Part shown: piece after piece, positions 17,701 through 20,700 of the stretch | How the letters are laid out: each line of letters opens with the position of its first letter | Position numbering within the stretch: position 1 is the first letter of the stretch | NCBI RefSeq assembly: GCF_053078305.1 | Contig: NZ_CP166879.1 | Length of the DNA: 64,000 nucleotides | Reading direction: 5' to 3' (one strand) | Program-made: the position numbers

Positions 17701-20700
17701 GTGTGCCGGAAGATGTGGCGATCCTTTGTCATCTGGATCCCAAAATTCCTTATCAGCATCCGTCGCTCATGAATGCCAGTCATGAATCGTGATGTTCTGC
17801 CGGAGGCTGTATGTCCCCTGATTACGTTCAGATGGAGATGCCTGCCAGGTACAGCCAGGCAGATTCAGAGTGGATTAAGCGGCAGTTACAGAGCCTGCCT
17901 TCCTCACTGAGACAGAAGGTCGCCCTGAAATACGCGGAGGTTTACGAAGTTACTTTTGATTCCGAGCCTGTTTCATTCCGTAAGGAGAACAGAGCGAGGC
18001 ATGAAGCCAATGTACGGCTGCGCAGGTTCGTTGAAACACACGGGCGTGCATTACAGGGGTATACGACTCAGCCGCCCCTGGCAGGAACGCAACAGCGTAC
18101 CTGAATGGTGTTGGTCTTAAAGGTGACCGACGGGCTGAGACCCCACTTCTCAGGATGCACCTGTGTACTACCAAGCTAGTACATAAGTTGAGAGGGGGGT
18201 AAGGGGGGGAGTGCCCGTGTGTTAGTGCGAAGCACTGGAACGGGATCTTCCAACAGACGGGTACAGAGGTTAGGTAGATCTCGATCTAAAGGGGGGCACC
18301 CCTGAAAAAACGGCTGCATCAGCAAACTAGTACATCATGGTTAAAATATGAGTGCTGAACTGAAACTGGTACTAATCAACCTTCTGGAAGAGGAATTCGG
18401 ACATGGAATGGACAAGGTCACATTCGACTACGTTCTGCAAAAGAAAATCAAATCCCTGGGCTGTGAGTTGCAACGCTGTTTCACTGTCAGGCTGAAAGGT
18501 GATCGCAAGGGATTTATCGATCTTCTGGTTATTTCTCCCGATGGTCAGCGTTGCGCAGTTGAGGTGGATAACCGATCGCCTCGTCAGCGTTCACTGATGA
18601 AAATTCGAGCGCTTCCTGAAGGCATTTCGGGATTTGTTTTTCTCCGTGATGGCAAACATCCACAGCGTTATATCGCCGATGGTGTGGATGTCATCCGGGC
18701 GACCCGGTTTAAGTAATCACTGTATCAGCCCTGTCATCGGGAGAATACCATGCTGAATATCAAGCCGAATTTTGCTCAGGAACGTGCGCTGAATATGTTG
18801 CGTCATGACTGGAAAACATATCAGTCCTTCATGATGTACATGCCTACAGGGAGTGGTAAAACCGGCCTGGCGGCGTTCATCACTGCTGGTCTGGTAAGCC
18901 GTGGCATGCGCGTTCTGTTTGTCGTTCCTTATACCATTTTGATCAACCAGACAGCACAGCGCTTTGTTCAGTACGGGCTTTCCGGGGATGAAATCAGCTT
19001 TATCTGGCGTGATCATCCCAATAACGACCCGTCACGACTGATTCAGATTGCCAGTGCGGATACGCTGATTCGCCGTGATTTTCCTCAGAATATCGACCTG
19101 CTGATTATTGATGAAGCGCATCTCCGTAAGCGCCGCATCCTCACGGAAATCGAACGACTGGTTGCAGAGGGAAATGTGAAGGTGATTGGGTTGTCCGGTA
19201 CACCCTTTTCATCGTTCCTGGGGCGTTATTACCAGCGTCTTCTCAAGCCGACCACTATAGGGGAACTGATCCAGCGTGGCGAACTGAGCAATTACGAATT
19301 TTATGCGCCCACGAAACCGGATCTGGAAGGTGTAAAAACGAAAGTCTCAATGGAGTACGGCAGGGATTACGACGAATCACAACTGGCAGAGATTATGTGC
19401 GGCGCGGATCTGGTTGGCGATATTGTCGATAACTGGCTGTGTAACGGAAGGGATTTACCGACAGTGGCGTTCTGCGTCAATAAAACGCATGCCAGCTTCG
19501 TGACCATGCAGTTCAACAAAGCCGGAATTAACGCAGAGGTGATGGTTGCTGAAACGCCACATGATGAGCGTCAGTTAATGATCAGTCGTTTTGAAACGGG
19601 AGCGACGAAAATCATTGTCAGCGTTGGCGTTCTGGTGGCGGGATTTGACAGTGATGTCCGGTGCATCATTTACGCACGCCCGACAAAATCAGAGATTCGC
19701 TGGCTTCAGGCGATTGGGAGAGGATTGCGTACAGCGCCAGGAAAGGAGTCATGCCTGATTTTCGACCATTCCGGTACGGTTCATCGCCTGGGATTTCCTG
19801 AAAATATTGAGTATGACGAACTGCCCGGCAAAAACGACGGGATGCAGGTGTCATCATCACGTGGTAACGAAATTCGGGAAGAAAAACTGCCGAAAGAATG
19901 TCCGGGGTGTCATTTCATGAAACCGGCAGGTGTTTATGTCTGTCCGAAATGCGGATTTAAACCGCTGGCTGGTGAGGATGTGAACACAGATACCCGCCGC
20001 AATATCAGGAAACTCAGCAAGGACGAAAAAATTTACACCAAAAGCGACAAACAGGCCTGGTGGAGTCAGATCAAATTCTATCAGCGTCAGCGTGCCTCTC
20101 TGGGGCGACCGGTCAGCGATGGATGGTGCGCTCACACTTTCCGGGAGAAGTTCGGCGAATGGCCTGACGGGCTGAGCAGTTTTCCGATGGAAATCACCCC
20201 GGAGGTCAGTAATTACATCAGACACAAATTCATCCGGTTTGCCAGAGGGCGTAGCCGGGCAGAGAAGATGACGGAAAAATCCCCCGAAGCGCTTTCTCTG
20301 TCCCTGCTTCATGGTGTCCGGTCTGGGGTGCCGGAAGGCAGTGAGTCGTGGCAGATCATGCAGGCAAAGCAACAACTTCAGAAAAACAGAAACAGTCTGA
20401 GTCAGTAAGATGAAAACAGCAGAAGCAGCGAAAGGCCACTGGCCTGAAATTTTAAAACATTACGGACTGCCGCCAGTCACGGGTAAAAAGCACTTCAAAG
20501 GGGAATGTCCGGTTTGTGGTGCCAGAGGTAAGTTCCGTATTGATGACCGTGATGGCACCGGAACGTGGATCTGTGTTTGTGGTAGCGGTGACGGCATGAA
20601 ACTGATCGCTCTGACACAAAAAAGAGCGTTTCATGAAATTTGCGCTGAAATAGACCGCATCACGGGGAATGAATACCGGAGAGATAAACCGCCTGTGATC

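What the first reader, a model, noticed from the sequence alone, without database searches (positions are those of the whole stretch)
18105..18347. Structured G-rich intergenic region with hairpins and repeated CTAGTACAT motifs upstream of the replication module
The 240-bp gap before the 122-aa ORF and helicase contains a perfect hairpin (tgtacta-ccaagc-tagtaca), a second copy of ctagtacat about 150 bp later, two G6 tracts (gagaggggggtaagggggggag) and a ggggggcacccct hairpin. This is unlike the surrounding AT-neutral coding sequence and could be a replication origin with iterons, a structured non-coding RNA or a regulatory leader.
Basis: seen in the sequence. Interest (0 to 1): 0.3.

Follow-up and report, generated by a model that had tools for sequence, protein, structure and literature searches.

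The report
Host-repressor-flanked control region of phage replication genes
The 240-bp gap is a conserved, non-coding control region (probably the origin) in front of a prophage's helicase and primase genes, and its "hairpin" and repeated motif are two binding sites for the host tryptophan repressor flanking a G-rich folded core, which suggests the phage ties its replication module to host amino-acid supply.

Summary
The gap lies between a 97-aa ORF and the SF2 helicase and primase genes of a Fels-1/phi467-like lambdoid prophage. A recognisable version sits upstream of the helicase in about 95 related loci from Escherichia, Salmonella, Klebsiella, Yersinia, Serratia, Trabulsiella, Enterobacter and Morganella.

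- **TrpR-type sites.** The "perfect hairpin" TGTACTA-N6-TAGTACA and the second CTAGTACAT are two palindromes of the E. coli TrpR operator type (crystal operator TGTACTAGTTAACTAGTACA). They lie 147-158 bp apart in about 45 variants. Sister phages with 95-100% identical replication proteins carry tandem MetJ met-boxes (AGACGTCT) at the same two positions, so host repressors are the likely binders.
- **Core.** Between the sites are a purine/G-tract block with the highest G-quadruplex score in the 64-kb window, a covarying three-way junction that pairs only on the + strand, invariant motifs and GATC sites.
- **Upstream hairpin.** A strongly covarying hairpin with an invariant loop (UUAAAGGY) follows the 97-aa ORF.

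There is no Rfam match, no conserved promoter, no terminator and no iterons.

Best reading (inferred, about 0.4): a transcription-dependent, ColE1/T4-like R-loop origin or control region gated by host TrpR. The main rival is an expression-control leader with repressor roadblocks.

The parts
17811..18104 (+). orf97 (phrog_852, function unknown). It is the conserved upstream partner of the element. The model has three helices, and the protein carries a conserved Arg-rich stretch ENRARHEANxRLR.
   Evidence: A homologue precedes the element in nearly all loci. It has no Pfam, PDB or fold match.
18109..18132 (+). HP0: an 8-bp stem-loop directly after the orf97 stop codon, with the loop UUAAAGGU at 18117-18124 invariant across the family.
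   Evidence: 23 distinct variants were tested. 84.8% of cells are paired and 7 of 8 pairs show changes on both sides. The covariation score is 0.532 against 0.270 for shuffles (0 of 500 reach it), and slid controls stay at or below 0.17. The G.U pairs are valid only on the + strand. A covariance model gives one hit in the 64-kb window (30.7 bits), and the hit is always at this position in relatives.
18164..18183 (.). O1: a TrpR-operator-like palindrome, TGTACTA-CCAAGC-TAGTACA.
   Evidence: The outer 7+7 bp are identical to the TrpR crystal operator TGTACTAGTTAACTAGTACA. The site has 1 mismatch to GTACTAGNNNNCTAGTAC. The GTAC bases are conserved rather than covarying. The half-site profile G-T-A-C-T-A-G-y-T matches that of natural operators.
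18190..18211 (+). Purine/G-tract block GAGAGGGGGGTAAGGGGGGGAG, with G6 at 18194-18199 and G7 at 18203-18209.
   Evidence: It has the top G4Hunter score in the window, 2.24. The median of the maxima in 46 variants is 2.28. The G5-7 / 1-3 nt / G5-7 arrangement is kept even in Morganella, where the helicase is only 65% identical. Tract lengths vary (6/7, 7/7, 8/7, 7/8) among phages whose helicases are 100% identical.
18211..18264 (+). Three-way junction. P1 pairs 18211-18218 with 18257-18264. UGUU at 18220-18223 pairs with AACA at 18252-18255. One hairpin is AGUGC-GAA-GCACU at 18224-18236. The other is GGAA-N7-UUCC at 18237-18251.
   Evidence: The RNAalifold consensus has 20 pairs, 7 of them with compensatory changes. 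P1 is GUGCCCGU/ACGGGUAC in the window, CCUGU/ACAGG in KPP5665, and entirely swapped to GGAGUUG/CAACUCC in L090. The mini-hairpin occurs as GUGC/GCAC, GCGC/GCGC and GCCC/GGGC. A conserved G.U pair in P1 makes the fold specific to the + strand. P1 is broken in the Fels-1, TUM1886 and ST11 types.
18247..18256 (.). Conserved motif CTTCCAACAG (family consensus CTTTTCCAACAG).
   Evidence: It is nearly invariant across all types in which the helicase is at least 74% identical.
18268..18277 (.). Invariant motif GGTTAGGTAG.
   Evidence: It shows no covariation, which looks like sequence-specific recognition.
18275..18288 (.). Palindrome TAGATC-TC-GATCTA carrying two GATC (Dam) sites.
   Evidence: At least one GATC, AGATCT or GGTACC palindrome is kept at this position in all types.
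18291..18310 (+). GGGGGGCACCCC hairpin followed by an A6 run.
   Evidence: The hairpin itself is poorly conserved. An A5-8 run before O2 is conserved. Other types have a covarying GGGCR...YGCCC hairpin with an A-rich loop.
18316..18333 (.). O2: a second, weaker TrpR-operator-like site, GCATCAGCAAACTAGTAC.
   Evidence: 3 mismatches. It reads GTATCAGCAAGCTAGTAC in the closest relative. A second site lies 147-158 bp from O1 in about 45 distinct variants.
18348..18716 (+). orf122 (phrog_1347). This is an optional insert between the element and the helicase gene.
   Evidence: It is absent in ST11-VIM1phi8.3-type loci and replaced by NUMOD4/HNH ORFs in TUM1886 and Yersinia loci.
18750..21378 (+). 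SF2 helicase (RadD/UvsW-like, with a Zn ribbon) and the primase (Zn-ribbon, DUF7146 and Toprim domains). This is the module the element always precedes.
   Evidence: The element was found upstream of the helicase in 90 of 92 loci, and the two misses lack upstream DNA. It was also found in L092-L096.

Best explanation
**What is shown.** The gap is a composite, conserved cis-acting region belonging to the orf97-helicase-primase replication cassette of a family of lambdoid prophages. It lies in the early-right operon and is therefore transcribed rightward from PR. In 5' to 3' order it contains:
1. a hairpin that forms only on the + strand, with an invariant loop;
2. a TrpR-type operator;
3. a polypurine/G-tract block;
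4. a three-way junction that forms only on the + strand, followed by invariant sequence motifs and GATC sites;
5. an A run;
6. a second TrpR-type operator.

In sister phages MetJ met-box arrays replace one or both TrpR-type sites.

**What is inferred.** The core is the phage's replication origin or initiation control site, and it works in a transcription-dependent way, like ColE1 or the T4 R-loop origins.
- The PR transcript folds (the hairpin and the junction).
- Its purine/G-rich stretch forms a persistent RNA-DNA hybrid, while the displaced G-rich strand can form a G-quadruplex.
- The phage's RadD/UvsW/PriA-like SF2 helicase and its primase then take over.
- Tryptophan-bound TrpR (or SAM-bound MetJ) sits on both flanks and couples this step to amino-acid sufficiency, as an architectural factor, a topological barrier or an insulator.
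For: **Position and linkage.**
- The element is always immediately upstream of the helicase on the same strand, whatever else varies.
- No O/P-type, DnaA-type or Rep-type initiator is encoded in the module.
- In a Proteus relative the same slot holds an AT-rich region with repeats plus a wHTH protein that matches PHROG 'replication initiation / DnaD-like loader' families. In Methylobacterium the gene upstream of the helicase is a DUF1376 'primosomal' protein.

**Host operators.**
- The sites match the TrpR crystal operator and the natural operators.
- There are only two such sites in 64 kb, and both flank the core.
- MetJ-box arrays occupy the same two positions in L008, with a chance expectation of 0.01. 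They also occur in L097, L100 and L094.
- Between the TrpR-type phi467 and the MetJ-type TUM1886, orf97 is 100% identical, the helicase 95% and the primase 99%.
- No TrpR or MetJ homologue is encoded in the window or in any locus.
- The spacing between the two sites is constrained to 147-158 bp.

**Single-strand structure on the + strand.** HP0 and the three-way junction.

**G tract.** It has the highest G4 score in the window and the property is conserved across types. It lies on the non-template strand with respect to PR.

**Conservation.** In the phi467, Fels-1 and KPP5665 types the core is 83-95% identical in nucleotides to the window, while the helicase gene is 72-75% identical.

**Helicase relatives.** Its nearest relatives (RadD, UvsW, RecG, PriA) act on branched DNA and R-loops (the biochemical roles are from general knowledge).

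**Precedent.** R-loop origins in T4 and ColE1 are reviewed in PMC12599619.
Against: - There is no AT-rich unwinding element and there are no iterons.
- Nothing computed here shows replication starting at this site.
- Cumulative GC skew shows no turning point.
- P1 of the junction is broken in the Fels-1, TUM1886, ST11 and L022 types, and a global RNAalifold run over all 56 variants gave no consensus structure.
- Binding of TrpR or MetJ is inferred from sequence only.
- O2 in this window is weak (11 of 14 specified positions).
- Repressors that bind when nutrients are plentiful have no known positive role at any origin.
- A transcribed leader that controls expression explains the RNA structures equally well.
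Confidence: 0.4

Rival explanations
1. The region is an expression-control leader and not an origin. It would be an untranslated leader of the delayed-early transcript. Holo-TrpR or holo-MetJ bound at the two operators would act as roadblocks to RNA polymerase coming from PR. This would set how much helicase, primase and Q is made according to amino-acid supply. The RNA elements (HP0, the junction, the G tract) would control processing, stability, Rho access or translation.
For: - The region lies inside an operon, with no conserved promoter or terminator.
- It has covarying structures that form only on the + strand.
- The leader is G-rich and C-poor (G 31%, C 20%). From general knowledge, such a sequence is a poor Rho loading site.
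- The operators do not overlap a promoter, which fits roadblock action. PurR in purB is a known roadblock (from memory).
- Q lies at the end of the same operon.
Against: - One operator would be enough for a roadblock. Two operators at a fixed 147-158 bp spacing around the core suggest that the core itself is the controlled object.
- The invariant motifs show no covariation, which looks like DNA recognition.
- Blocking the lytic genes when nutrients are plentiful is the opposite of the usual lambdoid logic.
- The optional orf122 or HNH genes sit between the leader and the helicase without disturbing the leader.
Confidence: 0.3
2. The operators are repressor decoys. As the phage genome amplifies, they would titrate TrpR or MetJ and so derepress host tryptophan or methionine/SAM synthesis for the benefit of the phage. 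The core would be a separate element that happens to share the only large non-coding gap in the operon.
For: - No regulated promoter is found at the sites.
- Either repressor can be used, and mixed types exist.
- From general knowledge, multicopy trp operators are known to titrate TrpR.
Against: - The hypothesis does not explain why the sites keep to the two flanks of the core at a constrained spacing in about 45 variants.
- Two sites per genome make a weak decoy until late in replication.
Confidence: 0.08
3. The region is a processive antitermination site, either put-like RNA or a nut-like site in which orf97 plays the part of an N-like protein binding HP0.
For: - HP0 is a covarying hairpin with an invariant loop, like boxB.
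- orf97 has an Arg-rich stretch.
- The position, downstream of cro, resembles that of putR or nutR (PMC9378689).
Against: - HP0 and the core are single-copy and occur only in the rightward operon, whereas put and nut occur as L and R pairs.
- No boxA was found.
- No terminator was found that would need to be overcome before the helicase gene.
- The model of orf97 is a folded three-helix protein.
- This reading does not explain the DNA operators.
Confidence: 0.06
4. The region encodes an independent small RNA gene, on either strand (for example an oop-like antisense RNA).
For: The region is structured and conserved. Lambda has the oop RNA gene at the comparable cII-O boundary (from memory).
Against: - There is no conserved sigma-70 promoter on either strand and no intrinsic terminator.
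- The wobble pairs favour the + strand, which is the mRNA strand.
- No Rfam family matches.
Confidence: 0.04

Closest known systems
E. coli TrpR operators (trpEDCBA, aroH, trpR; PDB 1tro operator TGTACTAGTTAACTAGTACA)
   Same: Both are 18-20-bp palindromes with GTACTAG / CTAGTAC half-sites and the same GNACT core. In O1 the outer 7+7 bp are identical to the crystal operator. The half-site base profile is the same, including positions 8-9, which were not used to select the sites.
   Different: The phage sites do not overlap any recognisable promoter. They occur as a pair about 150 bp apart around a structured G-rich core inside a phage operon. Binding has not been tested.
MetJ operators (tandem AGACGTCT met-boxes)
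   Same: Sister phages (TUM1886 type, Morganella pMM1680-3, a Klebsiella plasmid, Serratia) carry 2-3 tandem 8-mers with 5-8 of 8 matches at the same two flank positions (consensus from PMC4239095).
   Different: These arrays are not present in this window, which is the TrpR type. As with the TrpR sites, no promoter is associated with them.
ColE1 origin / RNA II, and the phage T4 R-loop origins (oriF, oriG) with UvsW
   Same: No dedicated initiator is encoded. The transcript runs through the site. A G run sits in a folded transcript, and an SF2 helicase of the UvsW/PriA kind is encoded next to it (background from PMC12599619, and general knowledge).
   Different: No antisense RNA I-type regulator or promoter was found. 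There is no sequence similarity. An R-loop has not been shown. Host-repressor sites on the flanks are not a feature of those origins.
Herpesvirus oriLyt (HCMV/EBV): a G-rich RNA-DNA hybrid region with an RNA stem-loop bound by a viral factor
   Same: Both combine a G-rich hybrid-prone segment with a conserved stem-loop in the transcript (cited in PMC12599619).
   Different: That is a eukaryotic virus with unrelated proteins. The comparison is an analogy only.
ColE1 cer site with ArgR/PepA (a host amino-acid repressor used as an accessory factor)
   Same: Both are mobile-element DNA sites that recruit a corepressor-dependent host repressor for a role other than promoter repression (from memory).
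   Different: cer is a Xer recombination site. No recombinase core site is present here.
Lambda nutR/boxB and HK022 putR
   Same: The position, downstream of cro in the PR operon, is comparable. HP0 is a hairpin with a conserved loop and a covarying stem.
   Different: The element is single-copy, has no boxA and no matching left-operon site, and has a different size and fold.

Membership tests
TrpR operator | An approximately 18-bp palindrome GTACTAGTTAACTAGTAC with GNACT half-sites | tested here: met
   O1 is GTACTACCAAGCTAGTAC (13 of 14 specified positions). O2 is GCATCAGCAAACTAGTAC (11 of 14). Natural operators score 11-13 of 14.
TrpR operator | Overlaps the -35/-10 region of the regulated promoter | tested here: not met
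   No conserved sigma-70-like promoter was found on either strand in 65 leader variants.
TrpR operator | Bound by the TrpR-tryptophan complex | not testable with these tools
   This needs EMSA, footprinting or ChIP.
MetJ operator | Two or more tandem 8-bp AGACGTCT boxes | tested here: not met
   The window scores at background level, 10-11 of 24. The feature is met in the sister loci L008 (19 and 18 of 24), L097, L094 and L100.
Iteron-type phage/plasmid origin (lambda ori-like) | Three or more direct repeats for a phage-encoded initiator next to an AT-rich unwinding region | tested here: not met
   The only repeats are the two operator palindromes. GC content is 50-58% across the gap. No initiator gene is present.
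R-loop (ColE1/T4-type) origin | A purine/G-rich transcript segment on the non-template strand, downstream of an active promoter | tested here: met
   The G tract is on the + strand of the PR operon, with a G4Hunter score of 2.24, and the property is conserved.
R-loop (ColE1/T4-type) origin | A persistent RNA-DNA hybrid, with DNA synthesis starting from it | not testable with these tools
   This needs DRIP, RNase H sensitivity tests and origin mapping.
HK022 put RNA | Two related copies (putL and putR) of about 70 nt, each with two stem-loops | tested here: not met
   Only a single copy exists, in the rightward operon, and the fold is different.
Lambda-type nut site | boxA plus a boxB hairpin, present in both early operons | tested here: not met
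   HP0 is boxB-like in form, but no boxA and no second copy were found in the window or in the loci.
Any Rfam family | A covariance-model match | tested here: not met
   There is no credible hit at E<=10 in the window region, and none at E<=0.1 in 7 diverse variants.
Intrinsic terminator / attenuator | A GC-rich hairpin followed by a U run | tested here: not met
   None was found in the gap. GGGGGGCACCCC is followed by an A run.
G-quadruplex motif | Several G tracts and a G4Hunter score above 1.5 | tested here: met
   The score is 2.24 in the window and 1.8-2.7 in the full-length variants. Actual folding was not tested.

The most novel reading that the evidence does not exclude
This would be a phage replication origin without iterons or an AT-rich unwinding element. 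It would fire through a transcript-templated R-loop and G-quadruplex in a polypurine/G-tract core. It would be licensed by whichever corepressor-bound host amino-acid repressor (TrpR or MetJ) the phage variant has recruited to its two flanks, so that phage DNA replication, and with it the lysis-lysogeny outcome, reads host tryptophan or SAM levels directly.
Probability: 0.2. Interest if true: 0.85.

Novelty: new variant of a known kind. Interest (0 to 1): 0.62.

Why it matters
Lambdoid phages are the textbook case of a virus deciding between lysis and lysogeny according to host physiology. The known inputs act through CII/FtsH, cAMP and RecA. Here a widespread prophage family in Escherichia, Salmonella, Klebsiella, Yersinia and Serratia carries operator-like sites for two different host amino-acid sensors, TrpR and MetJ. 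The two kinds of site are interchangeable at the same two positions, around a conserved G-quadruplex-prone folded core directly in front of the replication genes.

If binding is confirmed, this is a direct and easily testable link between amino-acid status and phage replication or delayed-early expression. It would also be an example of mobile elements swapping host-factor "plugs". If the core proves to be an R-loop/G4 origin served by a RadD/UvsW-like helicase and a primase, it would define the unknown origin type of a common but unstudied phage replication module.

No annotation covers the region in 57 RefSeq E. coli genomes. I found no paper describing it.

Tried and rejected
- **Rfam.** An E-value scan of the window region and of seven diverse variants gave only chance hits (snoRNA or miRNA models) or none.
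- **tRNA/tmRNA.** None found.
- **Promoters and terminators.** The scan found none in the gap. My own sigma-70 scan of 65 variants on both strands found no positionally conserved promoter. Sigma-54 and DnaA-box resemblances seen by eye were weak and not conserved, so I dropped them.
- **Global RNAalifold** on 56 variants gave no consensus. Structure emerges only within alignable subgroups.
- **The GTAC palindromes as RNA hairpins.** Rejected, because the GTAC bases are conserved and the flanking positions show mismatches on both strands.
- **A phage protein as the binder.** Rejected, because orf97, the helicase, the primase and cro do not track the site type. No TrpR or MetJ homologue is encoded.
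- **nut or put.** No second copy of HP0 or of the core exists.
- **orf97.** It has no Pfam, NCBIfam or PDB sequence hit. The AlphaFold model is three helices (pLDDT 74) and has no significant Foldseek match.
- **Pattern searches.** My first collection pattern was mis-specified and matched only the TUM1886 type. A correct pattern found nothing among one-genome-per-species contigs.
- **Literature.** Searches for STM0899, for TrpR/MetJ in prophages and for the core sequences found nothing relevant.
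Full report
**Setting.** Window 16.3-22.8 kb is the immunity and early-right region of a lambdoid prophage. The genes in order are:
- a LexA-family CI repressor (16816-17514, minus strand);
- a cro-like gene (17583-17792);
- a 97-aa ORF (17811-18104);
- the 243-bp gap (18105-18347);
- a 122-aa ORF (18348-18716);
- an SF2 helicase (18750-20408);
- a Zn-ribbon/Toprim primase (20410-21378);
- a 288-aa ORF;
- antiterminator Q.

The same order is annotated in E. coli prophages, phage phi467 and Salmonella phage Fels-1. In every one of those records the gap is unannotated.

**Observation.** The gap carries the strongest G skew of the neighbourhood. It also holds the top G4Hunter score of the whole 64-kb window.

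**Conservation.**
- Alignment with phi467, Fels-1 and E. coli relatives showed a core of about 100 nt that is almost invariant, although the flanking genes are only 72-83% identical in nucleotides.
- BLAST in distant mode found the core in Klebsiella phages and in further E. coli prophages. In those the gene after it differs (a NUMOD4/HNH ORF) or is missing altogether.
- I fetched 80 loci by helicase homology. A profile of the core hit 90 of the 92 loci then held, always upstream of the helicase on the same strand. The two misses have no upstream DNA.
- Yersinia, Serratia, Trabulsiella and Enterobacter loci have the element too, and Morganella has a diverged form.
- The 97-aa ORF is the constant upstream partner, and the 122-aa ORF is optional.

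**The palindromes are host-operator look-alikes.** Across roughly 60 variants the GTAC tetranucleotides of both palindromes are kept rather than covarying. The flanking positions show mismatches that fit neither strand as an RNA helix. This is the behaviour of a double-stranded DNA protein site.
- The sequence is that of the E. coli TrpR operator. The operator in PDB 1tro is TGTACTAGTTAACTAGTACA, and window O1 is TGTACTA-CCAAGC-TAGTACA.
- Natural operators read from the K-12 genome are GAACTAGTTAACTAGTAC (trp) and GTACTCTTTAGCGAGTAC (trpR).
- Phage variants include GTACTAGTTAAAGAGTAC and GTACTCTTTTGCTAGTAC.
- The half-site profile of 114 phage half-sites (G, T, A, C, T, A, G, C/T, T) matches the natural one. 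This includes position 9 and, in part, position 8, neither of which was used to pick the sites.
- In the window only two places match GTACTAGNNNNCTAGTAC with up to three mismatches, namely 18165-18182 and 18316-18333.
- The two sites are 147-158 bp apart in about 45 distinct variants.

**MetJ boxes replace them in sister phages.** In the TUM1886 type the two positions carry AGACGTCT|ATATGTCT|GGATGTAT and GGACGCCT|AGACGTCC|AGATGTAA. These are tandem MetJ met-boxes (consensus from PMC4239095).
- They are the only two such matches in that 8-kb locus, against a chance expectation of 0.01.
- Morganella, a Klebsiella plasmid-borne copy and Serratia have similar arrays. Mixed arrangements exist, with a MetJ-like site on the left and a TrpR-like site on the right.
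- Between phi467 (TrpR type) and TUM1886 (MetJ type), orf97 is 100% identical, the helicase 95% and the primase 99%. Cro variants do not track the site type either.
- Nothing resembling TrpR or MetJ is encoded in the window or in any locus.
- The economical conclusion is that the host repressors are the binders. This is inference from sequence.

**Strand-specific structure.** Two parts behave as folded single strands on the + (mRNA) strand.
- *HP0 (18109-18132)* follows the orf97 stop codon directly.
  - In 23 variants, 7 of its 8 pairs show compensatory changes, and many G.U pairs would be A.C on the other strand.
  - The 8-nt loop UUAAAGGY never changes.
  - A covariance model finds it once in the window. 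In relatives it is always at this spot, sometimes as a tandem duplicate.
- *The core.* In the subgroup that includes the window it folds into a three-way junction at 18211-18264.
  - Seven of its 20 pairs covary, including a complete swap of P1 in L090 and three versions of the C-GAA-G mini-hairpin.
  - Other subgroups have a different but analogous nested fold.
  - Some natural mosaics break P1, and no single structure fits all variants.
  - Support for the junction is therefore moderate.

**Sequence-conserved parts.** The G/purine block keeps its pattern (G5-7, 1-3 nt, G5-7, plus further G3-4 tracts) even where the rest has diverged, with median G4Hunter maxima of 2.28. CTTTTCCAACAG, GGTTAGGTAG and at least one GATC-containing palindrome are invariant without covariation. 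That suggests recognition as sequence, plausibly by the equally conserved phage proteins.

**What it is not.**
- There is no Rfam match in the window or in seven diverse variants.
- There is no tRNA or tmRNA.
- There is no intrinsic terminator and no conserved sigma-70 promoter on either strand.
- There are no iterons and no AT-rich stretch.
- HK022 put elements come as a left and a right pair of about 70 nt (PMC9378689). This element is single.

**Mechanism.** The facts to be explained are these:
- strict linkage to a helicase-primase pair that has no initiator gene;
- location in a transcribed operon;
- folding on the mRNA strand;
- a polypurine/G block on the non-template strand;
- invariant DNA motifs and GATC sites;
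- two corepressor-dependent host repressor sites enclosing about 150 bp.

The helicase is nearest to RadD, UvsW, RecG and PriA, which are enzymes of branched DNA and R-loops. In a Proteus relative the same slot holds an AT-rich repeat region and a wHTH protein with replication-initiator or DnaD-like PHROG matches. In a Methylobacterium relative a DUF1376 'primosomal' gene sits upstream of the helicase.

I therefore favour an initiation site that depends on transcription, as in ColE1 and the T4 R-loop origins (background). TrpR or MetJ would act as flank-bound gatekeepers. Every step from 'R-loop' onward is inferred. The chief rival is that the region is only an expression leader and the repressors are roadblocks. 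That rival explains the RNA structures as well, but it explains the paired, fixed-distance operators and the invariant DNA motifs less well. Decoy, antitermination and small-RNA readings are less likely, for the reasons given under the rival explanations.

**Novelty.** TrpR and MetJ operators, R-loop origins and phage leaders are all known. What I could not find described is their combination: interchangeable host amino-acid-repressor sites bracketing a G4-prone folded core in front of a phage replication module. It is not annotated anywhere. I rate it a new variant of a known kind, with moderately high interest because the central claim (TrpR/MetJ binding and its effect on replication) can be tested in days.

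Noticed in passing
window 18194-18209; L012, L015, L016: The two poly-G tracts differ in length (6/7, 7/7, 8/7, 7/8) among prophages whose helicases are 100% identical. This looks like slipped-strand length variation, which could tune the element.
   Followed up: partly
window 18348-18716; L008 4159-4761; L092 1851-2507; L094 4120-4626: The slot between the element and the helicase is a hotspot for optional genes. It holds the 122-aa ORF here and NUMOD4/HNH homing-endonuclease-like ORFs in TUM1886 and Yersinia. In Serratia an HNH ORF sits between the helicase and the primase. Loci with an insert (L005, L006, L090) carry a third TrpR-like site about 30 nt before the helicase start, as if the insertion had duplicated O2.
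   Followed up: partly
window 18614-18641: An intrinsic-terminator-like hairpin plus T run (TCCTGAAGGCATTTCGGGA TTTGTTTTTC) lies inside the 122-aa ORF, on the + strand, upstream of the helicase.
   Followed up: no
window 43469-43526 and 45182-45211: These are further G-quadruplex-prone stretches (25-nt G4Hunter score 1.7-1.9). The first has the highest 50-nt score in the window. They were not examined.
   Followed up: no
window about 17519-17575: The cI-cro intergenic region contains a long inverted repeat, TTGATACTTTAG...CTAAAGTATCAA. It is presumably the CI/Cro operator and is unrelated to the GTAC sites.
   Followed up: no
L099 1807-2498 (Proteus mirabilis): In this relative (helicase 62% identical) the G-rich element is absent. 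The slot holds an AT-rich region with CTGTCTC-type repeats and a 152-aa wHTH protein that matches PHROG replication-initiator and DnaD-like loader families.
   Followed up: partly
L096 1505-1555; L098 2068-2124; L071 2147-2230: HP0 occurs as two tandem copies with the same loop in Trabulsiella, Enterobacter and some IMG/VR phages. Yersinia versions have the loop UUGAAGGU, plus a second upstream hairpin with a GAAGG- or GAAAGG-containing loop.
   Followed up: partly
plasmid records H101, H105-H110, H112: Several 37-42-kb circular Klebsiella 'plasmids', and a 39-kb Morganella one, carry this helicase-primase module. They look like whole phage genomes (excised phage or phage-plasmids).
   Followed up: no
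window 17811-18104 (orf97): The sequence EPVSFRxENRARHEANxRLRxFV...GxAxQGYT..PPL is conserved from Escherichia to Proteus (34-100% identity). The model is a three-helix protein with no detectable relatives of known function. Its gene ends 4 nt before HP0.
   Followed up: partly
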